A stretch of 64,000 nucleotides of DNA from a virus, in the IMG/VR virus record IMGVR_UViG_3300028920_000038, positions 1-64,000 of that record; one strand, given 5' to 3'. Each line of letters opens with the position of its first letter. Within the stretch, counting starts at the first letter, position 1. The translations under genes were made by a program, and so were the position numbers. The notes under the pieces were generated by a model. The model saw only the letters and a program-made list of their open reading frames with translations, did no database searches and had not been told where the DNA came from. Shown one piece after another: positions 37,111 through 64,000 of the stretch.

Positions 37111-37721
37111 TGGAAATATATATCAGTCCAGGCAATAGACGAATGGACATACCGACATTCAGCTTACCAGCAGTTAAGACATGTCCAGGATCCACAGAAT
37201 TATGTAAGAAGAATTGCTATGCACTTAAAGCTGAAAAGGTTTGGAAAGGTCCTAAACAATCAAGGAATAGAAACTACGATATAAGTATGACAAAAGAATT
37301 TGTGGATAAGATGATTCATAAAATATCAAAAAGTAACAAAGAATATTTTAGAGTACACGAATCAGGAGATTTTTATTCACAGGAGTATTTAGATAAATGG
37401 ATAAAGATATTTGAAGAATTTAATATAGAGGATAAGAAAAAGAAGTTCTTAATATATACACAGAAATATGATTTAGATTATTCTAAACTTCCAAGTAATG
37501 TAATTCTCTATTGGACAATATGGCCTGATACAGATATAGATAAAGTACCAGAAGGTTTGAGAGCTTATGTTATTGATGACGGAACTGGTAAGATTCCAGA
37601 GAATACTTATATAATTAATGAGCCAAAGATCTGTAAGAAGGGTAAAGGTTCTAAATTAAAATGTGATGACTGTATGTATTGTTATGAAGGCAGAGGTGAT
37701 GTAGTATTTATCCTTCATTAA
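37110..37721 (+). CDS. Gp88-like (radical-SAM-related Fe-S) phage protein
   Basis: FSLPAVKTCPG....CKKNCYA, FRVHESGDFY, YT, C-terminal C..C..C. Confidence 0.75.
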   Translation: MEIYISPGNRRMDIPTFSLPAVKTCPGSTELCKKNCYALKAEKVWKGPKQSRNRNYDISMTKEFVDKMIHKISKSNKEYFRVHESGDFYSQEYLDKWIKIFEEFNIEDKKKKFLIYTQKYDLDYSKLPSNVILYWTIWPDTDIDKVPEGLRAYVIDDGTGKIPENTYIINEPKICKKGKGSKLKCDDCMYCYEGRGDVVFILH

Positions 37722-37954
37722 GATTTAGAATATTTAAATTAAAAGATGTCAGAATTAAAAAGATAACAAAATCTGGAGATGTATTTTATAGATTATATCT
37801 CAAAAGAAGATTTATACCTATCTGGTTATATGATAGTTCAGAAGTTAGATTAGAACATATTATTTCTAGTTACAAACGAAAGATGAAAGAGATACAGCAT
37901 CCTACGAAATCGGAATGGATTCCAAGAGAAGAGCTTTTGATTGATGAACTATAG
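37706..37954 (+). CDS. Unannotated 82-aa ORF, probable ATT start; shared C-terminal motif
   Basis: Open frame after a TGA; GAGGTGA at 37693-37699, 6 nt before ATT; ends PREELLIDEL*. Confidence 0.5.
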   Translation: MYPSLRFRIFKLKDVRIKKITKSGDVFYRLYLKRRFIPIWLYDSSEVRLEHIISSYKRKMKEIQHPTKSEWIPREELLIDEL

Positions 37955-37999
37955 AAAGATTTATATACTACATATACCACAAACTATATAAATGTTTCG
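37953..37999. promoter_or_regulatory. Tandem or bidirectional BRE/TATA promoter pair
   Basis: AGAAAGATTTATATA (+) and TATATAAATGTTTC (14-mer identical to the minus-strand promoter at 17161). Confidence 0.55.
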
Positions 38000-38031
38000 T
38001 ACCTAATAGAGTATAATGACAGGAGAGAAAC

Positions 38032-38541
38032 ATGAAAACTAAGTATTATCATTCTAAAACAATTAGAACCGATGGATATAAATCTCAACCAGAGTATGAT
38101 GAATTGATATCTGATTTAGATATATCAAGTCTACGGTTCTTGAAGCAGAAAAAACAGAAAGACATTAATGAATTTAGAAGTACACATGATTTGAATAATC
38201 CAGAATATGCTGAAAAATATAAAGTAATGCAACAGCAATTTGTAATGATAACTCAAGAAATAAAACACCGTCAAGTGTTTAATGAATCATCTAAAGAAGA
38301 AGAATGGTACGATCCAGAGACAGGCTTTATCATAGATGAACATGGGAATTATAAAGGAGCTGTATATTATGATGAGAATGAAGAATCTATGGTATATAGT
38401 AATTCAGAAGATAATGTAGAATCAGTTAGTTTTGAAGAAGAAGATGAAGATGAGTTTGATTATCAATATGCAGATAAGGATTTAAAAGATTCTAAAATGT
38501 CCTGGGAAGATTGGTGTAAAGAAAAAGGATTACAAAAATAA
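38032..38541 (+). CDS. Acidic hypothetical protein
   Basis: AGGAG SD; D/E-rich C-terminal half. Confidence 0.75.
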   Translation: MKTKYYHSKTIRTDGYKSQPEYDELISDLDISSLRFLKQKKQKDINEFRSTHDLNNPEYAEKYKVMQQQFVMITQEIKHRQVFNESSKEEEWYDPETGFIIDEHGNYKGAVYYDENEESMVYSNSEDNVESVSFEEEDEDEFDYQYADKDLKDSKMSWEDWCKEKGLQK

Positions 38542-39116
38542 TGAGAAAAACTACAGATGATGGAAGAATAATAATAACTAAAAGAGGAAAAGAAATATCC
38601 AAATCTTCTTATAGTAATTGGGATTTGTGGAAACTTTCTAAAGATTTAAATAAAGATGAATTGAGTATGTTAATTACTTTAAGAAAAAATTACCTAAAAC
38701 ATACAGAAGATCCAGAAATGATAAGAGGTTATAGAAGGGATATTCTTATATTAGAAGATGCATATAAAATAAAGAGCAGGGAAGAAATAGGAATATACAG
38801 TAAATCAGATTATTCAGAATCCTATTGGCATGAAGATTTAGATGAGTTATCTTCTCTAGCTGTTTGTATGATTAATAAATTAGGTTACACACAAAATACT
38901 TTATATAAAGAGAATGCTTTAAATATTAGCAGGCGAATAGAATTAGAGGGAGATAAAGAATTAATAGCAGCCTGTATAGTAAAGAATATATTAGATTATT
39001 ACGAATCAAAATTTGATATAAATTACATATTAAAATTGTATAGTATCAACGAACCAGATTTTTATAAGACCTATATTGAGTGTAATCGTTGGTGTTCAAA
39101 GCACTACTGGAGTTAG
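38541..39116 (+). CDS. Hypothetical protein, C-terminal half resembles a TFB cyclin repeat
   Basis: INKLGY...ALNI...GDKELIAACIV...KFDINYILKLYSINEPDFYKTY resembles the TFB IAAA.LY...TQ.EIA....VTE.TI...Y pattern (by eye only). Confidence 0.35.
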   Translation: MRKTTDDGRIIITKRGKEISKSSYSNWDLWKLSKDLNKDELSMLITLRKNYLKHTEDPEMIRGYRRDILILEDAYKIKSREEIGIYSKSDYSESYWHEDLDELSSLAVCMINKLGYTQNTLYKENALNISRRIELEGDKELIAACIVKNILDYYESKFDINYILKLYSINEPDFYKTYIECNRWCSKHYWS

Positions 39117-39225
39117 ATTTTTTTAGTACATAAAAAATTATTGTAGAGTGTGCTATGCAAATTGATTAGATTTAATACGTAAAATATGTAAAAAAAAAAA
39201 GAAAACAAAAAAAGGAGAAAAAATA

Positions 39226-39915
39226 ATGGCTGAAATAATAAGCGAAGATATGTTTGGTGACATCCTAAAGAGTGGACCATCGCAATTCATTTACCCTCCT
39301 AAAGAGGGAGAGCCAGAGATTGTAGTAGTATTTCAATCGAGTATATCAATTACGAATCCTGGCGATGAAGATGTGTTGGGTAAGATTTGGGATCCACCAA
39401 CAGAAGATGCAAACGGAAATCCAATTATAGATAAGTTCGGACCGAATAAAGGGAACCCTATGCAACCTTGGGCTAAAGTAGAAGCACAGGTTACTAAAGG
39501 AGGCTCTCCTAGTGTACTTACTTTTGGAAGAAAGAACGGAGCATTCCTTAGAGAATTTGGTATAAAGATGAATGAAGAAGATATTACCAACCAAGATCTT
39601 AAAGGAACCAAATGGTCTATACAAAGGACTGGAAGGTATAATTGGTCAATCGAATATCTAGGAAGGGAGGAGTCTGACTCCTCTACTCCTAAAGAAGAGA
39701 AGAAAGAAAATAAGGATTTAGAAAGTATAAAATCAAGTTTAGTTAGTTTAAAATCTGGAAATCCAGATGTAGCTAAAGGTGTAGATAAAAACCAACTTAT
39801 GCAAAATTTGGTATTCATAACTGGATTAAAACCTGATGCAATTAAAAGTAATTGGGATAAACTAATTAAAGAGAAAATTATAGAAGAAAAAGACAACACA
39901 GTTAAGGTGCTATAA
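39226..39915 (+). CDS. Hypothetical protein, possible ssDNA-binding protein (beta domain + linker + C-terminal helical domain)
   Basis: First gene of the recombination cluster; architecture reminiscent of RPA32-like proteins. Inference only. Confidence 0.35.
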   Translation: MAEIISEDMFGDILKSGPSQFIYPPKEGEPEIVVVFQSSISITNPGDEDVLGKIWDPPTEDANGNPIIDKFGPNKGNPMQPWAKVEAQVTKGGSPSVLTFGRKNGAFLREFGIKMNEEDITNQDLKGTKWSIQRTGRYNWSIEYLGREESDSSTPKEEKKENKDLESIKSSLVSLKSGNPDVAKGVDKNQLMQNLVFITGLKPDAIKSNWDKLIKEKIIEEKDNTVKVL

Positions 39916-40141
39916 TGGCAAATGTAAAATCACCTTGGGATACTAAATTCCTAAGAGAGACTCCTTTCATAGCATTCGGATCTATGATGAATGCATATGG
40001 TAGAATGAATGAAGGTAAAGAAATCACTCCAGAGGAATTTGAGAAGATAGCCAATAAATTATTCCAAATCGCTAAAGGATATGCAATAGCTGCATTCGGT
40101 GCTGCATCTACAGATGATGAAGTAGACCTACCTGTGAAACA

Positions 40142-40696
40142 ATGAAATTAGAGAAAATATTATCTGAACATATAAATAAAAGTAAACCAAAATATACAAG
40201 AGAATTAGGAAGATATTGGGCTACTGATATCAATTCAATAAAGAAAGGATACCTTACTCCAGATAACTTCTTTGTTAGTAAAGATATTAATATAGACGGA
40301 GTTAGGATGATACTAACTGGTATGGCCTATGAAGATATGCTCACCAAGATATTTAAAGAAGGTGGAGTTGATTGTAGTCCTCAAGAGAAAAAGGTCATGA
40401 AAATTACAGAGGAAATAGATCTGGTTGTTAAACCTGATTATGTGTTTCCAGACTTTGTTGTTGAAACTAAATATCCATTCTCTGTGATGAAACCTAATAG
40501 TATACCAGATAGATATAAATATCAATTAGAGTGTGAGTATAGGGCATTTGAAAGACCAGTTTATTTGGGAACATTCTCTGCTCCTTTTAATGTTACATTT
40601 ACTTTGTATCATCCTTCAAAGAATATCTGGAAGAATATACAAAAGACCTTGGTAGATTTTCATGAACAGCTTAAGAAGAAGCAAAATGAAATATGA
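40142..40696 (+). CDS. PD-(D/E)XK (Cas4-like) exonuclease
   Basis: G...E, KPDY...VVETK...YQL motifs. Confidence 0.75.
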   Translation: MKLEKILSEHINKSKPKYTRELGRYWATDINSIKKGYLTPDNFFVSKDINIDGVRMILTGMAYEDMLTKIFKEGGVDCSPQEKKVMKITEEIDLVVKPDYVFPDFVVETKYPFSVMKPNSIPDRYKYQLECEYRAFERPVYLGTFSAPFNVTFTLYHPSKNIWKNIQKTLVDFHEQLKKKQNEI

Positions 40697-41733
40697 TATT
40701 AAAGAGTTTATATTATGATCCAAACGGAATTGCAAGAGGAATTGTTGAGAACAATAGTAGGCAATATAACGTCTCCATCTGTCGTGAATTTAACCGTAGT
40801 TGGTGTTCATGCGCCTACAATCTTTTCAATAAGAGTCCTTGCAAACACATAATGTTTTTACTTGGTGAAGTGGATTTGAATAAAATGGTAAAGAAGAAAA
40901 TTTTAGATAGATTAGAAACAGGTTGTAAAACAATAGATGATCTTCTAGCTGGAGGTGTTCCATACTCTATTGTATCTGGAGTATATGGTAAACCAATGGC
41001 TGGTAAGTCGATGTTTTGTTATCAGATAGCTCTTGCTAACATTAAAGATAATGATAGAAAAGTTCTGTATATAGATACAGAAGGAATTAGAGTTACTGAT
41101 ATTAGAAGATTAATGTATAAATTTGGTGAGAGATTTGATTTAAAACCAGAAGAGATTAATAATAAAATAGAAATTATTAGTACTCTTGGTGATGTTCAAT
41201 TAAAATCTCTACAGAAATTGTTTAGAATGTTCGGTGAAATGGTTACACTCGATCAGTCAAAAGGAGGTAAATACACTCCTCACTTTGAAGTTTGTCATCC
41301 TACATATGATGATAAGAAGCTTGGAGAATATTCTATGATTATCATTGATTCATTATCAAAACCAATCAAAGATGCCATAGGTTCTAATACACCTAATCTA
41401 CCTGCTAGATCTCAGATACAGGAGAGACTATTCGGTATGCTAACACACAAAGCTATGATGCATAATCTAGCAATTATAATTAATCATCATACTACAAGAA
41501 ATCCTGCTATGCCTTTCGGTGAAGACTTCGGAACTCCTTCTGGTGGAGATGCTATTATGTATAATACCAAATATGTCCTGGAATTCTGGACAGCTACTAA
41601 TAAGATTAAGAATGATTCCAATTGGGGTATTGAAGCAAGACGAGTTAGATTATTCCGACATCCAACAGAACAAGTTACTGGAGAATGGCAAGTAGTAAGG
41701 CTCAAGAAAGATTACGGATATACGGATGAATAA
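40693..41733 (+). CDS. radB: RadA/RadB-like recombinase with N-terminal SWIM zinc finger
   Basis: WCSC......PCKHI (SWIM); LETGCKTIDDLLAGG, Walker A GKPMAGKS, YIDTEG, Walker B IIIDS. Confidence 0.85.
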   Translation: MILKSLYYDPNGIARGIVENNSRQYNVSICREFNRSWCSCAYNLFNKSPCKHIMFLLGEVDLNKMVKKKILDRLETGCKTIDDLLAGGVPYSIVSGVYGKPMAGKSMFCYQIALANIKDNDRKVLYIDTEGIRVTDIRRLMYKFGERFDLKPEEINNKIEIISTLGDVQLKSLQKLFRMFGEMVTLDQSKGGKYTPHFEVCHPTYDDKKLGEYSMIIIDSLSKPIKDAIGSNTPNLPARSQIQERLFGMLTHKAMMHNLAIIINHHTTRNPAMPFGEDFGTPSGGDAIMYNTKYVLEFWTATNKIKNDSNWGIEARRVRLFRHPTEQVTGEWQVVRLKKDYGYTDE

Positions 41734-42475
41734 AGATATGTATAGTGTGTTTAGAGATAAAGTAAAAATACTCGAAAGAGAATTTAAAAAAAGATTCGGT
41801 GATAAAGACTACACTGTTAATATAACTATGTGGAATGACGAAGATTTTCAGATAATCTTGTGGTATTCTACAGGAAATAGACTGATTCATAGATTATCTT
41901 TATCCTCAGATAATTCAGATATATTGTATTCAAAGGAAAAGATATGATTGATATTAATAGAATTAAAGAGATAGCAAAGAAGATAGCAAGAAATGACAAA
42001 AAATGGGTGATAAATAAAAAATGAAATGTCCTGAATGTGGAAAAGAACTTGGCGAAGGAAGTTATGTGGATATGATTCGCATAGGTTGGTGTTGTTCTGA
42101 TTGTAATGTAAAAATTTATAAAGAGATTTATGAGTAATAATTATGGTTATAGTATGTCCTAATTGTGGCTATCATATAAAATTAAGCAGCAGTCTAATTC
42201 ATTATATAAATGAATGTCCGAAGTGTGGAACATTCTTATCAAATGACGGAGTTGGTTGTTATAAGTAGAGTAAGACAAACATGTATTAAAAGAGCAGCAC
42301 TAGAGATTATGGAACGATTTCCAGATAAACTTGGAGGATCTTTTGAAATGAATAGAGAATTCATACGTTCCGTAATGAATGGTAACAAGAGATTAATAAA
42401 TAGAATATCGGGATATACAGTGAGATTATATAATAAGAAAAAGAAGAATGCAGAATCCATTACAAAGGGATATGT

Positions 42476-42931
42476 ATGAGAACACGTGTAACAAGAAAAC
42501 ATATCGAAAGTGCTAAAAAGAAATTAGAAGGTAAACATAGGTGCCTTTATTGTAATTATGCACATGATGATATAGAAGTATTAAAAAGACATGAAGCTAA
42601 AATGCACGGATGTTTTAGAGATAAGAATCCAAGACATCCATCAGTTAAATCAGAACAATTAAAAACCAGACCTAAAGGACCACCTTCTGAAGATAGAATA
42701 CTTAAACGAGCAGATGTATTCAAAGTTGGTGATATTGGTATTTGTGTAACTTACGAATGGGATGATAAGATAGAAAAATACCGAATGTATACAGATGATT
42801 TAAAATACAGAGATCATTTAGAAATTGTAGAAAAAGAAGGTCTAAAAGAATTTGGTATTAAAGATATAGAAAATCTAAGAGAAGAGTATAAGAACAGGCA
42901 CACTAATAAGGACGTGATTAAATTAGAGTAA
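42476..42931 (+). CDS. C2H2 zinc-finger-containing protein
   Basis: HRCLYC...LKRHEAKMH. Confidence 0.6.
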   Translation: MRTRVTRKHIESAKKKLEGKHRCLYCNYAHDDIEVLKRHEAKMHGCFRDKNPRHPSVKSEQLKTRPKGPPSEDRILKRADVFKVGDIGICVTYEWDDKIEKYRMYTDDLKYRDHLEIVEKEGLKEFGIKDIENLREEYKNRHTNKDVIKLE

Positions 42932-43146
42932 TTGATTATCTTAAGTGTGAATGTGGAGGATTATTCTATCAAAGAAATATTTCTGAAAGCAGATCAGAAC
43001 CATTTAAGATTGTAAGGTCTAGAAAATGTAATAAGTGTGGTAAAGTAGTACGTACTATTGAAATTACATTAGAATCTTACGATCAATCTGTGTCATTATT
43101 GAATAAAATTATTGAACTTATTAAGACCACCCAGTTAAAAAAATAG
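42922..43146 (+). CDS. Unannotated Zn-ribbon protein (NrdR N-terminus-like), ATT start
   Basis: IRVIDYLKCECGG...VRSRKCNKCGKVVRTIE; in-frame TAA at 42919, and the first canonical start lies after the Zn ribbon. Confidence 0.6.
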   Translation: MRVIDYLKCECGGLFYQRNISESRSEPFKIVRSRKCNKCGKVVRTIEITLESYDQSVSLLNKIIELIKTTQLKK

Positions 43147-43226
43147 TCAAAAATTTAGTTACTGTGCTTAAATTTTAGTCGAAAATTAGTTACAGTAACA
43201 TGTAAAAATAAAACGAATGGTATAGT

Positions 43227-43517
43227 ATGGACCTGAATGAATTACGTGATATTTGTCATAAAATTGCAGTAGAGAAAGGTTTTTGGGAATCAAGCAAATC
43301 TACACCGATTAAGCTAATGTTAATAGTATCTGAATTAGGTGAAGCTTGTGAAGCTGATCGTAATGACGATTACGATAATTTCCGAGAAGAAATTGCAGAT
43401 ACATTCATAAGACTATTAGATCTTTGTGGACATTTGAATATAGATATTGAATACGAAATAGATAAGAAAATGGACACAAATAGAAAGAGAGCTAGACTAC
43501 ATGGAAAAAGATATTAA
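43227..43517 (+). CDS. mazG: MazG-like nucleotide pyrophosphohydrolase
   Basis: SELGEACEA.R...EEIADTFIRLLDL. Confidence 0.85.
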   Translation: MDLNELRDICHKIAVEKGFWESSKSTPIKLMLIVSELGEACEADRNDDYDNFREEIADTFIRLLDLCGHLNIDIEYEIDKKMDTNRKRARLHGKRY

Positions 43518-43735
43518 TGAAAAAAGGGGAAGTATATAAAATAGAATCGATGCCTTGTGGTCACAAGTGTTATTCAAGATTCTGTTCAATGGGAATTATT
43601 AAAGGACAGGAATTCACAGTTAAAGAATGTGAACCATATGGTCCTATAGTTATAGATGTTAAAGGAATAACATATTCTATAGGACGTGGAATGTTAGGTC
43701 ATTTGGGATTAGTAAAGATAGGTGATGCTAAATAA
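43517..43735 (+). CDS. feoA: FeoA domain protein
   Basis: RFCSMGIIKGQEFTV....PYGPIVIDVKG....IGRG matches FeoA. Confidence 0.75.
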   Translation: MKKGEVYKIESMPCGHKCYSRFCSMGIIKGQEFTVKECEPYGPIVIDVKGITYSIGRGMLGHLGLVKIGDAK

Positions 43736-44361
43736 TACTCTGCGATTCAAGAGAACCTGATGAATTAATTAAAAAATTAAAATGTAAATGTAATGCTAAA
43801 GAAGAATTTTTAGGAGTTGGAGATTATATATTCTCAGACGGCTACGCTATTGAAAGAAAGAAAGGACGAGATCTAATGGCATCAGTGATGTCTAATAGAT
43901 TATTTGAACAGCTAAATAACCTATATGAATATGATAATCCTATACTAGCAATTATATCAGAGAACATCTGGAGAGATTTTTATTACACAAAAAGTAAATA
44001 TATTCATAAGCAATACATAGGAGTGCTCTCAACTCTTACATGTAAGTATCCTAAACTTAAGATTGTTTACTTTGATACTGATGATTCTTTTATAGATTAT
44101 ATGGTTTCTTTGGATAAGAAACTAAATGAAGATGGTAAAAAAGAAAGACCTGCACCTGTAATGAGAAAAGCAAAGAGTATACAAATGAGAAAAGAGAATG
44201 CATTAACTGCAGCAGAAGGTGTAGGAATTCCTATGGCTAAAAAATTATTAAAGAAGTATGGATCTATAATTCAAATAGCTAGTGCTGAAGATGATGATAT
44301 GTTAAAAATTGATAAGTTAGGAAAGAAAACTGTTAAAAATATTAAGGAGTTGTTAAATTAG
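43732..44361 (+). CDS. ERCC4/XPF (Hef/Mus81-like) nuclease + HhH; start extended to ATA at 43732
   Basis: CDSRE...GVGDY....AIERKK..DL..S...RLFEQL and GVGIPMAKKLL...KLGKK; the catalytic motifs lie upstream of the track's 43876 ATG. Confidence 0.85.
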   Translation: MILCDSREPDELIKKLKCKCNAKEEFLGVGDYIFSDGYAIERKKGRDLMASVMSNRLFEQLNNLYEYDNPILAIISENIWRDFYYTKSKYIHKQYIGVLSTLTCKYPKLKIVYFDTDDSFIDYMVSLDKKLNEDGKKERPAPVMRKAKSIQMRKENALTAAEGVGIPMAKKLLKKYGSIIQIASAEDDDMLKIDKLGKKTVKNIKELLN

Positions 44362-44645
44362 TGACCAAGAAATCAGAGACATTAAAAGAAGAAATAGAGA
44401 AACTGATTCAAGAGAGAGATTCATTAGCACTTAAAATTAATAATCTAAATGGTAAGATAGATTTAAAGACTGATGAATATTTCGAGAGTAGTGATAACTA
44501 CGTAAAAATTAAATGTCCAAACTGTGGAGGACGAGGATATGTCCAAAACCAAGAAACAGGAAAAAAGATTGTTTGCAAAGGATGCAATACCAAAGGGTAC
44601 ATCTGGTTGGAGAAATTTGAAGAATCAAAAGCGTCAGATAATTAA
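44361..44645 (+). CDS. Coiled coil + DnaJ-type Zn finger
   Basis: CPNCGGRG...CKGCNTKG. Confidence 0.7.
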   Translation: MTKKSETLKEEIEKLIQERDSLALKINNLNGKIDLKTDEYFESSDNYVKIKCPNCGGRGYVQNQETGKKIVCKGCNTKGYIWLEKFEESKASDN

Positions 44646-44856
44646 ATCTGCCATTGAATGTTTTGTATCATTAATACTTATATTAGCTTGTACAGCTATT
44701 ATATACTTTCCATTGGTGTACCTAATTAATAATGGATATGTTATACATCCAGATAATTTATGGCTATTCTATGCAGGTTGTTTATTACTAGGATATCTGT
44801 TAGCAAATATATTATATAAACTATATGAATATTTAAAATATCGATAGAGGCATAAA

Positions 44857-45234
44857 ATGTTTAGTAAGGATATAGAATTGTCTTTTAAAAGAAAAACAGG
44901 CAGATGTTCTGTTACTATAACTAGTAATGGAGTCAAAGATTTCTATGTAGTATCTAAAAAAGATATTGACAGAATGGATTTAAATAAATCAGATCTATTC
45001 TTTAAATTCATAGACACAGAATTAAATGGAGAAAGAACAATTATATGGAATAAAGAAGCTATTGATAGCATTCTTATAGAAGAAGAATATACTATAGACA
45101 GTATGAAATGTAGAGATCAGGAAGAAGCCGAGAGTGTTATCAGTGAAATGGAAAAGAATAATTGGAATATAGAATTAATTATTTGTGAAGATGATAAAAT
45201 ATTAAAAGACTTAAAAAGAAAATATATCAAATAA
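44857..45234 (+). CDS. Hypothetical protein
   Basis: ORF track; GAGG SD. Confidence 0.65.
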   Translation: MFSKDIELSFKRKTGRCSVTITSNGVKDFYVVSKKDIDRMDLNKSDLFFKFIDTELNGERTIIWNKEAIDSILIEEEYTIDSMKCRDQEEAESVISEMEKNNWNIELIICEDDKILKDLKRKYIK

Positions 45235-45259
45235 ACTAAAAAAAGGATGTAGACACAAA

Positions 45260-46054
45260 ATGGAAATAATAGAAGTAGAAGTTCCAAAAAATATGGACCT
45301 GTATTTTATAGGTGATACTCACATACCTAGAGGTAAGCTGAGTAAATTTAAGGCTGTTATACAAGAGATACGAAAATGTAAGGATGCCAAGGTAATTGGT
45401 TTAGGAGATTGGATTGAAGCAATTAAGTTTGGAGATCCTAGATACGATCCTGAAGAAGCAGCAGATCAAATAAAAGAGAATGACGGATATATCAATATGA
45501 TAAATGAACAGTGGGAAAAGTTTGAAGATATCATAAGACCAATAGCAGAGCAGGATAAGATTCTAGGATTACACCAAGGAAATCACGAATATCAGTACAC
45601 GAAGAGACATAGTCACAATGGCCTAAAGGAAATGTGTAAGAGATTAAGCATTAGATATTTGGATTATCTTCCTACAGTTTGGAGATTCAAATATGGAAAA
45701 ACTGAAACTAAAGCTATGACATTACATGGTATAGGATCTGGTGTAGCAGAAGGATACGAAGTGAGACAATTGGATAAACATTCAAGGATATTTGATGAAG
45801 TCGATTTAATAGCAGAAGGTCATACACATAAGTTAACTGTTAGTGTTACTTCTGATAGATTAAGAATTACTAAAGACAACGATCTGAAACAGAACATACA
45901 ATGGCGTTGTGCTTGTGGATCCTTCCTTGGAAACTACGATGTAGGAAAATCATCTTATTCAGAGAGAGCATTATATAAACCATTACCTATAGGATATGTT
46001 AAAGCTAGATTTGAATCAGCTAAATTAATAAATGCAATAGCAGTTCCGGTATAA
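45260..46054 (+). CDS. Metallophosphoesterase (calcineurin-like; possible nuclease)
   Basis: GDTH, GDW, GNHE, H, GHTH. Confidence 0.85.
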   Translation: MEIIEVEVPKNMDLYFIGDTHIPRGKLSKFKAVIQEIRKCKDAKVIGLGDWIEAIKFGDPRYDPEEAADQIKENDGYINMINEQWEKFEDIIRPIAEQDKILGLHQGNHEYQYTKRHSHNGLKEMCKRLSIRYLDYLPTVWRFKYGKTETKAMTLHGIGSGVAEGYEVRQLDKHSRIFDEVDLIAEGHTHKLTVSVTSDRLRITKDNDLKQNIQWRCACGSFLGNYDVGKSSYSERALYKPLPIGYVKARFESAKLINAIAVPV

Positions 46055-46256
46055 TGAAAGAATATGAAAGAGAGCACTATACATTAAGAGCATATAAAGA
46101 TGAGAGTTATGCTCTCGAAGTGTACGATCCTGTTCTTAGAACTTCAAAGTCTTACTACGATTCTTCTTGGGAGAAGCTATATCATAAAGCAAAAGAAGAA
46201 GCTTCTAATGGAAAAAGCTGTAAGATCTTTGAATTAAAGTATGAGTTTGAATATTA

Positions 46257-46508
46257 ATGAGACCATACGACAGATTTGAAATTGGAGATATAATAGAATT
46301 TAAATATAGAAATTATCCGGAAAGAGGATATATTATATTTAAAGTTATGGATAAAAAGACTAATCCATATGTAATGTATAAATTAAAACAATTAGCTAAC
46401 AAATCAAATATACATATAAACTTTGAAAATGGATGGCAATCATTTAATTTCAAGTATCATATATGTGAAAAAAAGAAAAGAGATGAAATAACGGTTGATT
46501 TATTATGA
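46257..46508 (+). CDS. Small SH3-like protein with shared C-terminal motif
   Basis: FEIGDII; ends KRDEITVDLL*. Confidence 0.6.
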   Translation: MRPYDRFEIGDIIEFKYRNYPERGYIIFKVMDKKTNPYVMYKLKQLANKSNIHINFENGWQSFNFKYHICEKKKRDEITVDLL

Positions 46509-46816
46509 GCCACTTTAAATGTGATTGTAAAGAATTTTGTAGACACAAACCCTATGCAGAAATTTATTATCCTTCAACAGAAGAAGAGGAAGGCAAATGG
46601 TTTTACGCTTGCTTTTATCATCTGTTAGTTTTAAAGATAAAGAGATTCTTTGGTAAAACTAAACCCTTTGGCTGGTGTAAAGTAGATACAGATAGAGAAA
46701 CTTTAGAGAGAATACTCGATGAAATATACTCAATACAAAGTGATCTGTGGGATATTAAAGAGGAAATGGGTTTAAATGAAGAAGTATCTTTTGATGATTT
46801 TGGAGTATATCAATAG

Positions 46817-47707
46817 ATGAATATGACAGACTTATTTAGTATCCCTTTCGGTCATAGAAAGATTGGTTATTGGAATGGAGGATTCGGAGGTCAATCTAAA
46901 GTATATACTAAAAAAGATATAATAGATTTTGTGGATGAACATCTAGGTATAGATAATATAGGATTATCTGTATGTACATATAAAGAAGATATTCCATATT
47001 TATTATTTCTACCATTTGACTTTGATTCTAAAGATCTTAAAAAATCATGGAAAGATGCTATTAAATTATTTAATCACTTTACTATTATAGGATTAGACTG
47101 TCACTTAACATTCTCAGGTAGAAAAGGATTTCATGTATTCCTTTCAGTAGTACCTAAGAATTATAATAAATATCTAATTAAAAAGATTCAAGTGTTCTTT
47201 AAAAAAGAATTAGGTCTCAAAACTATGGATCCAGCAATCTTCGGTCAGGATAATAGACTGATGAGAATACCTTACACCTTTAATATAGGTGGAGATATGT
47301 GTAAAGAAATACGTTGGAACAAAGGTAATCTATTAGATTTAGATATGATATTAGCAGGTCCAACTTATAAATCTTCTAGTTTAGATTATGACAAAGGAGG
47401 ATATCACAAGTATCCTTGTATAGAAAAACTTATAAGAGAAGATCCAGAACCTAGAGAGTTAATAAGACTATCTTATGTGGCTTTAAGATTAGATAAAGGA
47501 TGGACTGAAGAGGAAATTCTGGAAGAAATAAAGTCATTCGATTGGATAGACTTTGATGAAGAGAAAACAAGAAATAAGATTAGATATATAAGTGATGGTA
47601 ATTATAGACCATTAAGCTGCAAATCCATGGAAGAACGTGGATATTGTAAAGAACCTTGTAAATATAGAAATGGAGATAACGTTTTAGAGGAGGTTGGTAT
47701 ATTATGA
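46817..47707 (+). CDS. priS: Archaeo-eukaryotic primase (PriS catalytic domain fused to PriL/PriX-like C-terminal domain)
   Basis: PFDFD, FSGRKGFHVF, D..RLMRIP.T; C-terminal YPCI...SCKSM..GYCKEPC. Confidence 0.85.
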   Translation: MNMTDLFSIPFGHRKIGYWNGGFGGQSKVYTKKDIIDFVDEHLGIDNIGLSVCTYKEDIPYLLFLPFDFDSKDLKKSWKDAIKLFNHFTIIGLDCHLTFSGRKGFHVFLSVVPKNYNKYLIKKIQVFFKKELGLKTMDPAIFGQDNRLMRIPYTFNIGGDMCKEIRWNKGNLLDLDMILAGPTYKSSSLDYDKGGYHKYPCIEKLIREDPEPRELIRLSYVALRLDKGWTEEEILEEIKSFDWIDFDEEKTRNKIRYISDGNYRPLSCKSMEERGYCKEPCKYRNGDNVLEEVGIL

Positions 47708-48101
47708 GTGAAGAAGAAAGAACTTGTAGAGAATGCGGAGAACCGTTAGAAGATTACGAAGAAGATCTATGCGAAGACTGTAGAAATAATTTAGCATCAG
47801 CTATATTTAATACGGATGAAATAGACAATGAATTATTTTAATATACTGGTTTGTATCGGAGGAGTTACTCTTATAGCTTATTTATTAGCTAATAAGATGA
47901 GACATATGATGAGTCAAGTAAGATTATTTAAAACTGTTACTAAAGGCGGAGATCCAGAAGATCTTCCAGATAAAGAAGAATTACAAAATTTAATTATGAC
48001 TGTAGCTAAACAGCTACACAAAAAGAAAGAAGAAGAAAAGAAAGACGGAAATAGAGGAATGTACGGTTAATGTTATTTAGCTATAAAGAGGTATAACTGA
48101 T

Positions 48102-50439: not shown

Positions 50440-50970
50440 ATGGTAGATACCAAAATGGAAAGCGAATATATTGGATCGTCAAAGATTATGACGATTGATG
50501 AAGCCAAACAAAGAAAGGGAGTTATAGGAAAAGCTGCTACAGAATTTGAAGGAGAAATAGTAAATAAACAGGATAATCTGTTCAGTGATATAATGAGTGT
50601 AACATTTGGATGGAAAATCCAAGATGATGGATCAAGAAAACTAGTGTCTAAATTACCAAATGGAAAGATTATATTTCCAGATAGATCAGAACAGATCGAA
50701 GAATTAGAACCAGGTGTTCCTTATATTTGCTTGGTTTATGAAAGAGAACGAGAAGCATTCGCTAAAGTTTGTAGTGAAGAATATCAACCAAAAATATTTA
50801 TTCCTTCATCAAGAATGCCAACTATGGTCTGGAGAGATGATTCTCATAAAGTACGAAGGAAAATTCCAGTGGCAGATTCCTATGAAGGTAGAATAGTTCT
50901 TGCTATAAAAGAAATGGAAAAATTAGGATTTCCATCAATTAAAGTTATATTTAGAAACAATCAGAAATAA
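50440..50970 (+). CDS. Hypothetical protein
   Basis: AGGTGA SD. Confidence 0.75.
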   Translation: MVDTKMESEYIGSSKIMTIDEAKQRKGVIGKAATEFEGEIVNKQDNLFSDIMSVTFGWKIQDDGSRKLVSKLPNGKIIFPDRSEQIEELEPGVPYICLVYEREREAFAKVCSEEYQPKIFIPSSRMPTMVWRDDSHKVRRKIPVADSYEGRIVLAIKEMEKLGFPSIKVIFRNNQK

Positions 50971-53415: not shown

Positions 53416-53637
53416 ATGACGAGTTTAAAAGAATTAGAATTCGCGATAGATTCTTTAGTTGAAGAATTGATAGCAGTAAAAGTTTATTTCCAAAGAGTTA
53501 GACAAACAAAAGATAAAGAATTAAAAGCAATACTCTCTCATAATCTAGATGAAGAGAAAGAACATGCTGCTATGTTAATAAATTGGTTGCGTAGTATAGA
53601 TAAAGAATTCGATAAGAAATTTACAGAGCATGATTAA
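53416..53637 (+). CDS. Encapsulin-associated ferritin-like protein (EncFtn family)
   Basis: AIDSLVEELIAV..Y.QR....D.ELKAIL.HN.DEEKEHAAML..WLR..D closely follows the EncFtn consensus. Confidence 0.85.
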   Translation: MTSLKELEFAIDSLVEELIAVKVYFQRVRQTKDKELKAILSHNLDEEKEHAAMLINWLRSIDKEFDKKFTEHD

Positions 53638-57888: not shown

Positions 57889-58096
57889 GTAATGATTGGA
57901 GTTTGAAAGGGAAGTGTATCAGACCGTTTCCTAGTGTTGGTAAATCAGGATTTTATTCCAAAGATGACATCGAAATCCTCCGAGAGAAATTTATTGAAGA
58001 TATGAAAGAATATATGGACAGTCTTGGGTATATAAGATATTATGATGAAATTGAAATGATAAAAGTTATCAACAAACTATTCGGAGTTGAAACTGA

Positions 58097-60306: not shown

Positions 60307-60307
60307 T

Positions 60308-60529: not shown

Positions 60530-60986
60530 AAATGGCAGACGCTTGGTATCCAAAAGATGATGAAGATCAATGGGAATCTTGGTATCCCAAATGTCCTGCA
60601 TGTAAATCAAAGAATATTAAAGTGCTGGATGTATATAGAATTTCTTATGAATTAAATAGAGAAATTAGAAAAATGAGATGTGGAGATTGTAAAAATGAGT
60701 TCTGGGAATCGGAAGCCAGTTATTGAGAAATTAAAAAGAACTTGTTATGCATGTCCCAGTCAATGGGAAGGAAGAGATACAGAAGGTTATCCATATTATA
60801 TAAGATATAGATGGGATCACCTAACTGTGAGTAAGGGTAAAAGATATGGCCATATAGATACTGCAATAATGGCTGAGCCATATTTTTCAAAGACAGTTAA
60901 AGGAGATGGAATATCTGGAATCTTAGATTTTAATGAATTAAAGGAACAATTGAAATATACATTAGTAATTAAAGAGGAAATCGAAG

Positions 60987-61592
60987 ATGAAGATTACTTT
61001 GCTTGATTATACTGAAAATGGAATGAATAAAATAGCCAGAATGGCAAGAGCAACAAGATTGAATAGTTATGAGAATGGATTTGAATTAGATGAAACTAAA
61101 GATGATAAATTTGTTAAGAGATTAATAAGAGTGGGACATCTAGGAATTCTAGAACACATCTCCTTTACTTTTCATATATCAGAAGTGAGTAGGTGTTTAA
61201 CACATCAATTGGTAAGACATAGGATAGCATCCTATTTACAGATGAGTAATAGACATGCTAAGCCAGAGTTTCGTGGATATGTAACTCCAATTTCAATTAA
61301 TACTATAGAATATAAAGAATTCATGGATAATGCATATCTACTATACCGAGATATGATAGCAGATGGTTTACCTATAGAAGATGCAAGATATGTTTTACCA
61401 CCTGCATTCTTTACTCATATATCAGTAACTATGAATTGTAGAGAATTACTCCATTTCTTTGAATTGAGATGTGATAAAGCAGCTCAATGGGAAATAAGAG
61501 GAATGGCTTTAGAAATGTTAAAAATATGTTATGAAAAATATCCAGTGATATTTAAGGATATTTATGATAAGTACAAGAAGGATATAAAATGA
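60987..61592 (+). CDS. thyX: FAD-dependent thymidylate synthase
   Basis: H.GILEH, SR..THQLVRHRIASY.QMS.R, EDARYVLP, R....AQWEIR. Confidence 0.95.
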   Translation: MKITLLDYTENGMNKIARMARATRLNSYENGFELDETKDDKFVKRLIRVGHLGILEHISFTFHISEVSRCLTHQLVRHRIASYLQMSNRHAKPEFRGYVTPISINTIEYKEFMDNAYLLYRDMIADGLPIEDARYVLPPAFFTHISVTMNCRELLHFFELRCDKAAQWEIRGMALEMLKICYEKYPVIFKDIYDKYKKDIK

Positions 61593-61909
61593 ATTATACA
61601 TGGTCAACTACAACATCTAGTCATTGTGGAGATGGATCTAGTTATCACTTTTATTATGATAAACCATATAAGAATAAGCCAGCTACATGGGAAGATGTAT
61701 TTAAAATCAATTGGGATAAAATAAATCAAGTTCCTAAACCAGAAAAACCTACAGATATATTCAGTAGAGAAGAGACTATAATAACTAAAGATGGAGAATC
61801 AATATCATTAACTCTTGGAGAGTTATATGAATTGGAGAAACTTGGATTAGATCCAACAAAAATGACAAAGGAAGAATTAGAACAGCAATTATTAGCTATA
61901 AGGTTATAA
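61589..61909 (+). CDS. Hypothetical protein with shared C-terminal motif
   Basis: Ends TKEELEQQLLAIRL*. Confidence 0.6.
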   Translation: MNYTWSTTTSSHCGDGSSYHFYYDKPYKNKPATWEDVFKINWDKINQVPKPEKPTDIFSREETIITKDGESISLTLGELYELEKLGLDPTKMTKEELEQQLLAIRL

Positions 61910-61923
61910 ATGTTTATATAAAA

Positions 61924-63435
61924 ATGAGGAATAAAATGAATTTAAGTGACGCTGCGATTGAATTAATGAAGACTAAATATTGTAGTCACGGAGAAAAACC
62001 AAAAGATATATTTCCTAGAGTTGGAAAGGCATTAGCTCAACAGATGAACGGAGATGAGGATGCAGAGCAATTCACTAAAATAATGGAAGACCTGGACTTT
62101 TTACCTAATAGTCCATGTTTAAGAAATGCAGGCTATTCAAATATGGTAAAAGCGTGTTTTGTATTACCTGTTGATGATTCTATGGAGAGTATATTTAGAA
62201 CTCTTAAAGACTCTGCTATGGTTTTTAAATCTGGTGGAGGAGTTGGATATAACTTCAGTGACTTACGGGAAAGAGGAGCTACATTATCACATGGAGGAAC
62301 ATCCTCTGGTGTCATGTCCTTTATGAAGATCTATAATTCTATAACAGAAGCGGTCAAACAGGGAGGTTTTAGACGTGGAGCTTCTATGGGAGTTTTGGAT
62401 GTAGATCATCCTGAGATATTAGATTTTATAAAAGAGAAATTATCTAAAGGATCAATGAATAATTTTAATCTATCTGTAATGGCTACAGATGATTTTATGA
62501 AAGGTGTTGAAGAAGATAATAAGGTATTCCTTAGAAGTCGATTAGATAAAAGAGTTATTAAAGGCAAATTTAATTGTAGAGATTTGTTTAATATTATATG
62601 CTATTCAGCTTGGTTAACAGGAGATCCGGGATTATTATTCTATGATAGAATTAATAAAGACAATCCACATTATCCTAAATATGATATAAGAAGTACGAAT
62701 CCTTGTGGTGAAGTTCCTTTACTTCCATATGAATCTTGTTGTTTGGGAAGTATAAATTTAGCCAATTTTGTGACAAAGGACGGAGAATTTGATGTAGATA
62801 GATTCTCTAATATGGTTAGGATAGGAACTAAATTCTTAATGGCTATGACTAAGATCTGTGAATTTCCTATAGATGAGTGTTATACAGCTCAATCAAGATA
62901 TATGAGATTAGGTCTTGGAGTTATGGGATTTGCAGATATGCTTATGAAGATGGGTATACTATACGATTCAGATGATACTCTTAAGATGATAGATACTATA
63001 GGACCTATTATGCAAGAATCCAAACAATATGCTCCTATGTCAGTGGCTACATTATCCATAGCACCAACAGGAAGTTTATCTATTATTGCTAACTGTTCAT
63101 CTGGTATAGAACCTTGGTTCAGTAAATCGTACACCAGACATCTTACACATGGTAAAGTTAAAGAATCGAGAGATTCTAAATATCTAAGAACTGCTCATGA
63201 TATATCACCTGAATGGCATTTGAAAGTTCAATCTAGATGGCAATCTTATATAGATAATGGAGTAAGTAAAACAATTAATTTACCTCATAATGCTACTATT
63301 CAAGATGTTCAGAATATCTATATGAATGCTTGGAAGATGGGCTGTAAAGGAATTACCATCTTTAGGGATGGATGCCTTGGAGATACCGGACAAGTTCTTA
63401 GAAATACTTGCGATGAAGGTGATTGTTATCTATGA
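61924..63435 (+). CDS. nrdJ: Class II (B12-dependent) ribonucleotide reductase, compact
   Basis: PNSP, ACFV, GGGVG, TNPCGE, CCLGSINL, IAPTGS, SSGIEP, SKTIN; no NrdB nearby. Confidence 0.9.
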   Translation: MRNKMNLSDAAIELMKTKYCSHGEKPKDIFPRVGKALAQQMNGDEDAEQFTKIMEDLDFLPNSPCLRNAGYSNMVKACFVLPVDDSMESIFRTLKDSAMVFKSGGGVGYNFSDLRERGATLSHGGTSSGVMSFMKIYNSITEAVKQGGFRRGASMGVLDVDHPEILDFIKEKLSKGSMNNFNLSVMATDDFMKGVEEDNKVFLRSRLDKRVIKGKFNCRDLFNIICYSAWLTGDPGLLFYDRINKDNPHYPKYDIRSTNPCGEVPLLPYESCCLGSINLANFVTKDGEFDVDRFSNMVRIGTKFLMAMTKICEFPIDECYTAQSRYMRLGLGVMGFADMLMKMGILYDSDDTLKMIDTIGPIMQESKQYAPMSVATLSIAPTGSLSIIANCSSGIEPWFSKSYTRHLTHGKVKESRDSKYLRTAHDISPEWHLKVQSRWQSYIDNGVSKTINLPHNATIQDVQNIYMNAWKMGCKGITIFRDGCLGDTGQVLRNTCDEGDCYL

Positions 63436-63686
63436 TAGAAGAAATAACTATATATACAACACCAAATTGTAAATATTGTCAAGAAGCTAAGAATATTATA
63501 TCAAAATATTTTATTGAATACAATGAAATTAATTTAAAGAAAAAGGAAAATAGAAAAGCTAGAGAATTTTATAGAAGTTTAGGAATTAAAACAGCTCCAG
63601 TGATTGTCATTAAATCAAATGGAGAAGAGATTATATTATCTGAATATGATAGTGAAATGTTAGAGGAGATGATTGAGAGCGCATGA
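63423..63686 (+). CDS. nrdH: Glutaredoxin-like (NrdH) protein
   Basis: IYTTPNCKYC...TAPVI; follows RNR. Confidence 0.85.
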   Translation: MLSMIEEITIYTTPNCKYCQEAKNIISKYFIEYNEINLKKKENRKAREFYRSLGIKTAPVIVIKSNGEEIILSEYDSEMLEEMIESA

Positions 63687-63901
63687 AAAAAGAATTAGCA
63701 GATGAACCTGATAAAGAAGAAGACGAAGAAGATGACGATGAAGATGGAAAAGATAAAATAATAAATATGGAGAAAAATAGAAAAATTTGTTTAAATACTT
63801 TAAATGTTAATGTAGAAGTATCTTCTGATTATGAAGAAGATGATTTAGATAAACTTACTAATATAGCTACAGAACTTGTAAATAAATATAAAGTGGGGTG
63901 A
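63683..63901 (+). CDS. Acidic hypothetical protein
   Basis: ORF track. Confidence 0.55.
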   Translation: MKKELADEPDKEEDEEDDDEDGKDKIINMEKNRKICLNTLNVNVEVSSDYEEDDLDKLTNIATELVNKYKVG

Positions 63902-63905
63902 TTCA

Positions 63906-64000
63906 ATATATTGCCCAAAGTGTCATTCAAAATCTTCAGTAATTAATACAATTATGAAAAGAAATTTTGTGACAAGATATAGGAGATGTAATAATAAAAA
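63906..64000 (+). CDS. Zn-ribbon protein (NrdR N-terminus-like), ATA start, 3'-partial
   Basis: IYCPKCHSKSSVINT...RYRRC; in-frame TAA at 63879 and no canonical start before CPKC; GGGGTGA SD. Confidence 0.6.
   Translation, partial: MYCPKCHSKSSVINTIMKRNFVTRYRRCNNK

What the first reader, a model, noticed from the sequence alone, without database searches (positions are those of the whole stretch)
37706..64000. Several genes can only start at ATA/ATT, placed 4-6 nt after a GGTGA-type SD
Seen: the ERCC4 nuclease has an in-frame TAA at 43729, then ATA-ATA-CTC-TGC-GAT-TCA-AGA-GAA, so the essential DSRE/GDY/ERK motifs precede any ATG/GTG/TTG; AGGTGA sits 6 nt upstream and the FeoA stop overlaps as TAATA. 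The same layout holds for Zn-ribbon ORFs at 42922 (ATT) and 63906 (ATA) and for the ORF at 37706 (ATT). 'GTG starts' at 9671 and 16144 are the GTG of the SD with an in-frame ATT 5 nt later. ATG-start genes in the window show the same 3-6 nt spacing (e.g. after the SDs near 25213, 26345, 33806, 50428). Inference: routine AUA/AUU initiation by this virus-host pair, possibly as a way to tune expression.
Basis: partly seen in the sequence, partly recalled or inferred. Interest (0 to 1): 0.7.

Follow-up and report, generated by a model that had tools for sequence, protein, structure and literature searches.

The report
Virus genes starting at ATA/ATT codons
In this 138-kb marine-sediment virus, a DNA-repair nuclease, one to two small zinc-finger proteins and probably one more small protein begin translation at ATA or ATT just behind a strong ribosome-binding site, a known but rare habit that makes gene finders truncate or miss them.

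Summary
The ERCC4 nuclease frame opens at ATA 43732. Its Pfam domain starts at residue 5, and the Met of 209-214-aa homologues aligns with that ATA. The first ATG, at codon 48, would remove the catalytic motifs. The Zn-ribbon ATA at 63906 aligns with the ATG of a 54%-identical homologue.

ATT 42922 (Zn ribbon) and ATT 37706 are probable starts. The 82-codon ORF at 37706 has no homologues but ends in a C-terminal tag found only in real early genes. The GTG/ATT pair at 9671/9662 cannot be resolved. The ORF at 16144 shows no coding signal.

An independent assembly at about 93x depth shows no variants at three of the sites. Relatives from other samples have ATC, ATT or ATA at the same ERCC4 start. 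At least four switches are needed on the tree, and one clade keeps ATH. Other genes in relatives show ATH starts too, mostly behind 6-8-nt SDs, against 12-16% of ordinary genes.

Best reading: true near-cognate AUH initiation that lowers protein yield, as in bacterial infC, pcnB, cvfC1 and ccpN. "Routine" overstates it, because only about 1-4% of genes are affected. The host is unknown but probably archaeal.

This scan has already reported the same habit several times in Asgard archaeal genomes. I did not test those notes.

The parts
43720..43726 (+). Shine-Dalgarno AGGTGAT, 5 nt before ATA 43732 (6 nt from the A of GGTGA)
   Evidence: Read directly; SD scan.
43732..44361 (+). ERCC4/XPF-type nuclease with C-terminal HhH2, 209 codons, starting at ATA 43732. 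The public gene call starts at ATG 43876 and gives only 161 aa.
   Evidence: Pfam ERCC4 covers residues 5-127 of the frame from 43732, profile positions 2-140 of 140. Homologues of 209-214 aa cover 100% of the frame, and their Met aligns with the first ATA. Leader codon score is 0.37 per codon against 0.36 for the body.
63897..63902 (+). Shine-Dalgarno GGTGAT, containing the upstream gene's TGA stop, 3 nt before ATA 63906
63906..64000 (+). Small NrdR-like Zn-ribbon protein starting at ATA 63906. The ORF runs on to genome position 64100, for 64 codons.
   Evidence: The ATA aligns with the ATG of the 54%-identical homologue L006:14355 and of the paralogue at genome 67519. Pfam Zn_ribbon_NrdR match is below threshold.
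37693..37700 (+). Shine-Dalgarno GAGGTGAT (8 nt), 5 nt before ATT 37706
37706..37954 (+). Probable 82-codon early gene starting at ATT 37706. It overlaps the end of the upstream gene by 16 nt.
   Evidence: It fills the gap between genes 37110-37721 and 38032-38541. It ends in ...REELLIDEL. That C-terminal tag motif occurs in only 7 of 1717 ORFs, all on the + strand of the early region; the other six are accepted ATG-start genes. Codon score is +0.14 per codon. No homologues were found.
42910..42918 (+). Imperfect SD GGACGTGAT, 3 nt before ATT 42922
42922..43147 (+). Probable 74-codon Zn-ribbon protein (CxC...CxxC). The start is ATT 42922 or ATT 42931. No ATG, GTG or TTG precedes the Cys pairs.
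   Evidence: Translation. It sits where relative L001 has its NrdR-like Zn ribbon, upstream of FeoA. Pairwise similarity to that protein is weak, E 3e-5. All four Cys columns are invariant in the family alignment.
7515..9671 (-). PAPS-reductase/ATP-dependent DNA ligase fusion. The start is either GTG 9671, which lies inside the SD AGGAGTGAT (9675-9667), or ATT 9662. This is unresolved.
   Evidence: The Pfam PAPS_reduct domain begins at residue 62, upstream of the first ATG at codon 78.
14058..14447 (-). The start is ATA 14447 or ATC 14444, behind GGAGG 14456-14452. ATAA overlaps the upstream stop. The first canonical codon is a TTG with no SD, 16 codons after the ATA.
   Evidence: Codon score is +0.14 per codon, with the leader at +0.32, while the antisense ORF scores -0.04. 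No homologue check was possible.
16144..16458 (+). ORF behind GAGGTGAT (16141-16148) with GTG 16144 and ATT 16153. Not supported as a gene.
   Evidence: Codon score is -0.04 per codon. No Pfam match. No homologue in related loci.

Best explanation
These are intact, expressed genes whose start codon is a near-cognate AUA or AUU (AUC in relatives). The small ribosomal subunit is positioned by a longer-than-average Shine-Dalgarno pairing (AGGTGAT, GAGGTGAT, GGTGAT). That pairing places the AUH triplet 4-6 nt downstream in the P site. Initiator Met-tRNA then pairs with a mismatch at the third codon position, so the protein begins with Met.

The expected consequence is a several-fold to about 100-fold lower initiation rate than with AUG. 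This keeps a structure-specific nuclease and small Zn-ribbon (probably regulatory) proteins at low levels. AT-biased mutation in a 31% GC genome supplies ATG-to-ATA/ATT changes, and a strong SD makes them tolerable.

Shown: the gene structure, the alignment of the start with Met of homologues, SD strength and spacing, recurrence and retention in relatives, and base-call reliability. Inferred: that initiation actually occurs there, that the first residue is Met, and that lowered yield is the selected effect.
For: (1) The ERCC4 domain and the D-x-R-E, GDY and ERK motifs lie upstream of any canonical start. Sixteen aligned homologues place their Met on ATA 43732, and all invariant residues are present.

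(2) ATA 63906 aligns with the ATG of L006:14355 and of the paralogue.

(3) The same ERCC4 start is ATC in L004/L005, ATC in L006, ATT in L039, ATC in L040 and ATA/ATC in L041. Each follows GGAGTGA, GGAGAG, AGGAGGT, AAGGAGGT or GGAG. The tree needs 4 changes of start type, and a 100/98-supported clade of three keeps ATH. In L005, L039 and L040 the gene follows a gap of about 100 nt, so coupling to an upstream stop is not required.

(4) Other genes in relatives do the same: L006 FeoA (ATT), L001 about 19978 (ATA after AAGGAGG) and L001 3900 (ATA after AGGTGAT).

(5) Five of nine ATH starts found by homology alone have an SD match of 6 nt or more. Among ordinary genes the figures are 21 of 169 and 28 of 180.

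(6) Logan contigs at about 93x match 37600-49237 with no differences or variants.

(7) Published reporter and ribosome-profiling data show AUU/AUA starts with extended SDs working at 10-30% of AUG in S. aureus (PMC13009471) and at 1-2% in E. coli.
Against: There is no direct evidence of translation: no RNA run, no ribosome profiling and no proteomics. The nearest homologues of the window's own ERCC4 use ATG, so its ATA could be a recent change that is only tolerated. ORF 37706 has no homologues. The SD at 42922 is imperfect, and the position aligned with Met there is a CTT three codons after the second ATT. The candidate host-like MAG of a relative shows no ATH enrichment. SD + ATH + ORF patterns also arise by chance on non-coding strands.
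Confidence: 0.78

Rival explanations
1. Decaying genes: the start codons were lost by AT-biased mutation, and the ORFs are silent or on their way to becoming pseudogenes.
For: The genome is 31% GC, and ATG to ATA is a single transition. The window's closest ERCC4 relatives have ATG. No expression data exist.
Against: All ORFs are full length with no internal stops or frameshifts. Every invariant ERCC4 residue is kept. The ERCC4 leader has the same codon bias as the body. ATH persists across a diverged three-member clade. The sites carry unusually strong, correctly spaced SDs.
Confidence: 0.08
2. No independent initiation: the downstream protein is made by ribosomes that terminate on the upstream gene and restart (termination-reinitiation), or by a frameshift that fuses it to the upstream protein.
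For: In the window every case sits within 16 nt of an upstream stop. ERCC4 and the 14447 candidate have ATAA overlaps, analogous to ATGA.
Against: The ERCC4 frame has its own stop one codon before the ATA, leaving no room for a slippery site. Upstream neighbours differ among relatives. Three relatives have ATH starts after intergenic gaps of about 100 nt. Reinitiation would still need a start triplet and the SD, so this is a variant of the main reading rather than an alternative.
Confidence: 0.07
3. The gene callers are right: translation starts at the first downstream ATG and gives shorter proteins (ERCC4 161 aa, 63906 product 40 aa, 37706 product 23 aa).
For: The public call for this genome is the 161-aa form (P0004). 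AAGGA lies 9 nt before ATG 43876.
Against: The 161-aa form loses the first third of the ERCC4 domain, including the catalytic acidic residues. The 40-aa form loses the first Cys pair of the Zn ribbon. The internal ATGs at 63954 and 37883 have no SD.
Confidence: 0.04
4. Sequencing or assembly error: the true bases are ATG.
For: The genome is a metagenome assembly. Only one run holds it, and that run may be its own source.
Against: An independent assembly of that run at about 93x k-mer depth matches exactly, with no minority variants at 37706, 42922 or 43732. Three different third bases (A, T, C) occur. The same feature is seen at the same codon in contigs from five other samples.
Confidence: 0.02

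Closest known systems
S. aureus cvfC1 (AUU), ccpN (AUA), citZ (AUA) and infC (AUA) starts with extended SD motifs (Nat Commun 2026, PMC13009471)
   Same: A near-cognate AUU/AUA start sits a short fixed distance behind an extended SD. The start type is conserved among relatives. The targets include a small Zn-finger protein and regulators. The measured effect is attenuation to about 10-30% of AUG.
   Different: Those cases are bacterial, checked by IF3 and demonstrated experimentally. Here the genome is viral, the host is probably archaeal (which would mean no IF3), and nothing has been measured.
E. coli infC and pcnB AUU start codons (established; cited in bioRxiv 10.1101/063800 and PMC13009471)
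   Same: An inefficient AUU start limits the yield of a protein whose excess is harmful.
   Different: infC is autoregulated through IF3's discrimination against AUU. No such feedback loop is evident here.
ATT/ATA/ATC starts reported by this scan in Lokiarchaeial and other Asgard genomes (AI notes e1-5630182, e1-5575247, e1-5561411; I did not check them)
   Same: The same codons lie about 6 nt behind an SD in about 30% GC marine-sediment DNA, and gene finders truncate the proteins in the same way.
   Different: Those are cellular genomes and the habit is reported to be genome-wide. Here it is a minority habit in a virus. I could establish no link between this virus and Asgard hosts.
NCBI translation table 11 alternative initiators (ATT, ATC, ATA, CTG)
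   Same: The codons used here are already listed as possible prokaryotic starts.
   Different: Common gene finders consider only ATG, GTG and TTG, so these genes were truncated (P0004) or missed.

Membership tests
SD-led near-cognate (AUU/AUA/AUC) start codons (infC/pcnB/cvfC1/ccpN type) | Conserved N-terminal protein sequence or domain lies upstream of every in-frame ATG, GTG or TTG | tested here: met
   ERCC4: domain from residue 5, first ATG at codon 48. 63906 and 42922: the first Cys pair precedes any canonical start.
SD-led near-cognate (AUU/AUA/AUC) start codons (infC/pcnB/cvfC1/ccpN type) | The near-cognate codon occupies the position of the Met start of homologues | tested here: met
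   ATA 43732 and ATA 63906. Not met exactly for 42922, where the Met-aligned position lies 3-6 codons downstream of the ATTs. Not testable for 37706, which has no homologues.
SD-led near-cognate (AUU/AUA/AUC) start codons (infC/pcnB/cvfC1/ccpN type) | Strong or extended SD at the spacing used by AUG genes of the same genome | tested here: met
   SD matches of 6-8 nt at 4-6 nt aligned spacing, the same as ATG genes behind GGTGA. Only 12-16% of ordinary genes have such SDs.
SD-led near-cognate (AUU/AUA/AUC) start codons (infC/pcnB/cvfC1/ccpN type) | The non-canonical start is conserved among relatives | tested here: inconclusive
   An ERCC4 clade (L006, L039, L040) keeps ATC/ATT, and the start type changes at least 4 times on the tree. 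However, the window's own nearest relatives have ATG.
SD-led near-cognate (AUU/AUA/AUC) start codons (infC/pcnB/cvfC1/ccpN type) | Direct evidence of initiation (ribosome profiling, N-terminal peptide or reporter) | not testable with these tools
   No RNA run is listed, and only assembled contigs were available.
ERCC4/XPF-Mus81-Hef nuclease family | ERCC4 domain above the Pfam threshold, with the GDxn-ERKx3D catalytic signature | tested here: met
   PF02732 at 61.6 bits against a cut-off of 24. GDY...ERKKGRD is read in the translation. D31, E41, R42 and D47 are invariant.
ERCC4/XPF-Mus81-Hef nuclease family | C-terminal tandem helix-hairpin-helix domain | tested here: met
   HHH_5 at 32.3 bits against a cut-off of 27, residues 157-206.
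NrdR-like Zn-ribbon small proteins | Four-Cys ribbon and a Pfam Zn_ribbon_NrdR match | tested here: inconclusive
   All four Cys columns are invariant in the 5-sequence alignment. The Pfam score of 16.4 bits is below the cut-off of 27.2.

The most novel reading that the evidence does not exclude
AUH initiation could be a fingerprint of the host's translation machinery that these large sediment viruses have adopted. The hosts would be archaea with relaxed start-codon selection. One candidate is the Asgard/Lokiarchaeial lineages, in which this scan repeatedly noted the same habit. Another is sediment Thermoplasmatota. Start-codon usage could then serve as a host-prediction signal. In that case these would be 135-145-kb head-tailed archaeal viruses that attenuate a nuclease through start-codon choice.
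Probability: 0.2. Interest if true: 0.6.

Novelty: new member of a known kind. Interest (0 to 1): 0.4.

Why it matters
Practically, public gene calls for this virus family are wrong at these loci. ERCC4 is cut from 209 to 161 aa and loses its active site. Zn-ribbon genes, and a FeoA-like gene in a relative, are not called at all. Proteins that are never called are also missing from protein databases, which hides their homologues.

Biologically, the ATG/ATH switch recurs at least four times at one nuclease gene, is kept through a diverged clade, and is paired with stronger SDs. This is comparative evidence that start-codon choice is used, or at least tolerated, to set low expression in an uncultured virus family.

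If the host is archaeal, as the virus's ribosomal-protein-S17e-like gene and archaeal-type replication genes suggest, these are candidate examples of SD-led near-cognate initiation in archaea. That process has barely been characterised. In Haloferax ribosome profiling, about 30% of putative alternative sites were near-cognate but were set aside (PMC7261190).

Tried and rejected
- **Phage-encoded initiator tRNA with an altered anticodon.** No tRNA gene is present in the window or the genome. There are no Rfam hits.
- **Close relatives in public phage and viral collections.** None were found in GenBank phages or IMG/VR.
- **Homologues of ORF 37706.** The HMMER search of 1.84 billion representatives gave one spurious hit to a repeat protein. 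The positional analogue in L016 is unrelated. tblastn against related loci was empty.
- **Searching the relatives' whole records.** Only L006's genome is held, and it contained nothing for 37706, 42922 or the ligase.
- **RNA evidence.** No RNA holder is listed. Only contigs could be laid, not raw reads.
- **Host assignment.**
  - The best genome hits of an auxiliary sugar dehydratase were 49-51% identical, in a Woesearchaeota MAG and a Bdellovibrionales MAG, which is uninformative.
  - Cluster look-ups gave no names.
  - The protein atlas gave only "viruses/archaea".
  - The word search with the S17e-like protein found only itself.
  - A 20-kb DNA search of 401 genomes of G001's phylum found the relative's own contig, one shared gene in G296 and EncFtn-like matches, but no clear CRISPR spacers. 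G296:C34 is not a related virus.
  - I could not reach any Asgard genome, so the Lokiarchaeial-host idea is untested.
- **A-to-I editing of AUA.** Rejected because ATT and ATC occur at the same sites.
- **Apparent homology upstream of the ATG in L001:2970 and L008:5380.** This was an alignment artefact; both genes have normal ATG starts.

Full report
**What the DNA is.** The window is the first 64 kb of a single 137,847-bp contig of 31% GC. It has an HK97-type major head protein. It also encodes family-B DNA polymerase, a primase large-subunit-like protein, a RadA/Rad51-like ATPase, an ERCC4 nuclease and an ATP-dependent ligase. Genes are tightly packed, and there are no tRNA genes. So it is a large head-tailed virus. 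The only public run that holds it is a marine-sediment metagenome.

**Checking the observation.** In the ERCC4 frame, TAA at 43729 is followed by ATA ATA CTC TGC GAT TCA AGA GAA. AGGTGAT ends 5 nt before the first ATA. The FeoA-like gene's TAA (43733-43735) overlaps that ATA as ATAA. The first ATG, GTG or TTG in frame is ATG 43876, 48 codons in. ATG genes behind GGTGA-type SDs (25219, 26353, 33812, 50434) have their ATG 4-6 nt after the A of GGTGA. The ATH candidates show the same spacing: 43732 at 6, 37706 at 6, 16153 at 5 and 63906 at 4.

**ERCC4 (43732).** Pfam ERCC4 matches residues 5-127 of the frame read from 43732, covering profile positions 2-140 of 140. A C-terminal HhH2 domain follows. 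The database search found 43 relatives. Nearly all are 209-214 aa and cover 100% of this frame. The public call for this genome is a 161-aa truncation. In the alignment, homologues begin M-I-I-x-D-S-R-E, and their Met falls on the first ATA. All invariant residues are present. Codon bias in the 48-codon leader equals that of the rest of the gene, at 0.37 against 0.36 per codon. The gene must therefore begin at or next to ATA 43732.

**Zn ribbon at 63906.** The frame reads I-Y-C-P-K-C. A 54%-identical homologue in relative L006 and a paralogue at genome 67519 both begin M-x-C-P-x-C. Their ATG aligns with the ATA. The first ATG in the window's copy lies after the first Cys pair.

**Zn ribbon at 42922.** ATT is the first codon after an in-frame stop. 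No canonical start occurs before either Cys pair. The gene lies where relative L001 has its NrdR-like Zn ribbon, upstream of FeoA. Similarity to that protein is weak but present, with pairwise E of 3e-5, and all four Cys columns are invariant. The SD has one mismatch. The Met-aligned position is 3-6 codons downstream of the two ATTs. A non-canonical start is therefore required, but which triplet is used is uncertain.

**ORF 37706.**
- An 8-nt SD (GAGGTGAT) lies 5 nt before ATT.
- The 82-codon frame fills an otherwise empty 300-nt gap.
- No homologue was found. Genes of this kind would be missing from protein databases if gene finders skip them, so this absence says little.
- Independent support comes from its C-terminus...REELLIDEL. 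The motif [DEK][DE]x[LIVMF][LIVMF]xxL-stop occurs in only 7 of 1717 ORFs of 30 codons or more. All seven lie on the + strand of the early region, and the other six are accepted ATG-start genes of 78-149 codons. This follows a lead from earlier notes on this genome.
- I rate the gene probable.

**The remaining sites.**
- *9671/9662.* The PP-loop domain starts upstream of the first ATG, so the start is either GTG 9671, which lies inside the SD, or ATT 9662. Sequence alone cannot decide.
- *16144/16153.* This ORF has a negative codon score, no family and no homologue. I do not count it.
- *New candidate.* The minus-strand gene 14058-14447 has ATA or ATC behind GGAGG, with an ATAA overlap.

**Is it more than chance?** SD + ATH + long ORF alone is not enough. 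One search lists about four such hits on non-coding strands, such as the antisense ORF 39333-39929. The weight rests on homology. Among in-frame codons lying at least 10 codons upstream of the first canonical start, 7 of 17 SD-preceded codons in the virus are ATH, against a background of 12%.

**Are the bases right?** Contigs assembled independently by Logan from the holding run, at about 93x, match 37600-49237 without a single difference. No minority variant is reported at 37706, 42922 or 43732. The run may be the source sample, so this excludes assembler error rather than sample-level artefacts. Position 63906 was outside the stretch I could lay.

**Relatives.** I fetched syntenic contigs that carry ERCC4 homologues from other samples. 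At the Met-aligned ERCC4 codon:

| Locus | Start region | Note |
|---|---|---|
| L004/L005 | GGAGTGATTCAT-ATC | The gene caller took the GTG inside the SD |
| L006 | ATC, 7 nt after GGAGAG | |
| L039 | AGGAGGT-AACTACT-ATT | Called 60 codons too short |
| L040 | AAGGAGGT-AACTCAT-ATC | |
| L041 | ATA/ATC after GGAG | |

A maximum-likelihood tree of 43 homologues needs four changes of start type. L006, L039 and L040 form a 100/98-supported clade that has kept ATH through substantial divergence. In L005, L039 and L040 the gene follows an intergenic gap of about 100 nt, so termination-reinitiation is not needed.

Other genes in relatives behave the same way:
- L006's FeoA homologue, which was never called, starts at ATT behind TAGGAGAG.
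- An L001 homologue of window gene 50983 starts at ATA behind AAGGAGG.
- L001 3900 starts at ATA behind AGGTGAT.

Of nine ATH starts found by homology alone, five have SD matches of 6 nt or more. Among ordinary genes the figures are 21 of 169 (virus) and 28 of 180 (relatives). By my own binomial estimate this gives p of about 0.004.

**Mechanism.** The simplest account is SD-anchored initiation with initiator tRNA on a near-cognate AUH codon. This is established for bacterial infC and pcnB. It has also been shown, with extended SDs, for S. aureus infC, cvfC1 (a small Zn-finger protein), ccpN and citZ, at 10-30% of AUG efficiency (PMC13009471). In E. coli, AUA, AUC and AUU give 1-2% of AUG. The recurrence at a nuclease gene suggests selection for low dosage, with AT-biased mutation as the source of the changes. 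None of this has been measured for this virus.

**Host.**
- The virus and its relatives encode a ribosomal protein S17e-like protein (35-49 bits against a cut-off of 22.8). S17e is a family of archaea and eukaryotes.
- Relative L006 lies in a 2.3-Mb MAG (G001). That MAG has ribosomal protein S8e and no IF3. Its S8e is about 82% identical to Thermoplasmatales/Thermoplasmatota MAG proteins.
- I found no Ras-family or actin matches in G001.
- Binning of a viral contig into a MAG is weak evidence, so I call the host "probably archaeal, lineage unknown".
- In 400 kb of G001 there is no ATH enrichment behind SDs. However, pyrD and a solute symporter there can only start at SD-led CTG.
- Earlier AI notes of this scan report the same ATH habit in several Asgard genomes. 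I could not reach such genomes, so that link stays a hypothesis.

**Verdict.** About 1-4% of genes are affected, not "routine" use. It is a new instance of a known phenomenon. Two useful extras are the comparative evidence of recurrence at one gene and a clear annotation problem.

Noticed in passing
window 42210-42479 (+); also L001:8000-8308 and L016:9046-9336: The virus and its relatives encode a ribosomal protein S17e-like protein (Pfam PF00833, 35-49 bits against a cut-off of 22.8). S17e is restricted to archaea and eukaryotes, so this points to an archaeal host and is a virus-encoded ribosomal protein.
   Followed up: partly
window 53416-53637 (+): This is an EncFtn-like (encapsulated-ferritin-like) gene (PF22277, E 4e-24). 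Short stretches of 69-97% nucleotide identity to it occur in many genomes of the same phylum as G001 (Thermoplasmatota-like).
   Followed up: partly
window 50440-50970 (+): This conserved 176-aa protein next to PolB, of no known family, is 67% identical in protein sequence (74% in DNA) to a gene on a 34-kb, 37% GC contig of another genome of G001's phylum (G296:C34). That contig is otherwise unrelated to the virus.
   Followed up: partly
L020:6332-7246 (-) and L021:58-1485 (+), both in G001, the MAG that holds relative L006: In this Thermoplasmatota-like archaeal MAG, dihydroorotate dehydrogenase and a sodium:solute symporter have their Pfam domains starting upstream of any ATG, GTG or TTG. 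Each has a CTG 5 nt behind a GGTGAGGTG or GGAGGGGT SD, which suggests near-cognate CTG starts.
   Followed up: partly
window 26467-37954 (+), seven genes: Seven small early proteins end in [DEK][DE]x-hydrophobic-hydrophobic-xxL-stop (for example KDEYLMEVL and REELLIDEL). The motif is absent from the other 1710 ORFs of the genome. Its function is unknown.
   Followed up: partly
L006:9237-10025: A LAGLIDADG homing-endonuclease gene is inserted directly upstream of, and overlapping, the ERCC4 gene of this relative.
   Followed up: no
window 39333-39929 (-): A 196-codon antisense ORF lies behind AGGTGAT + 6 nt + ATT, opposite a well-supported + strand gene (39226-39915). It is a chance look-alike of the flagged pattern and serves as a warning against using SD + ATH + ORF alone.
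   Followed up: partly
window 7515-9671 (-): A single 718-aa ORF fuses a PAPS-reductase-like PP-loop domain to an ATP-dependent DNA ligase domain (Pfam PF01507 + PF01068). It lies among the virion genes.
   Followed up: no
genome 64-84 kb (L010): A sugar-modification and phosphonate operon sits here. It includes two NAD-dependent epimerase/dehydratases, a C-methyltransferase, a radical SAM/SPASM protein, a glycosyltransferase and a cytidylyltransferase-PEP mutase fusion.
   Followed up: no
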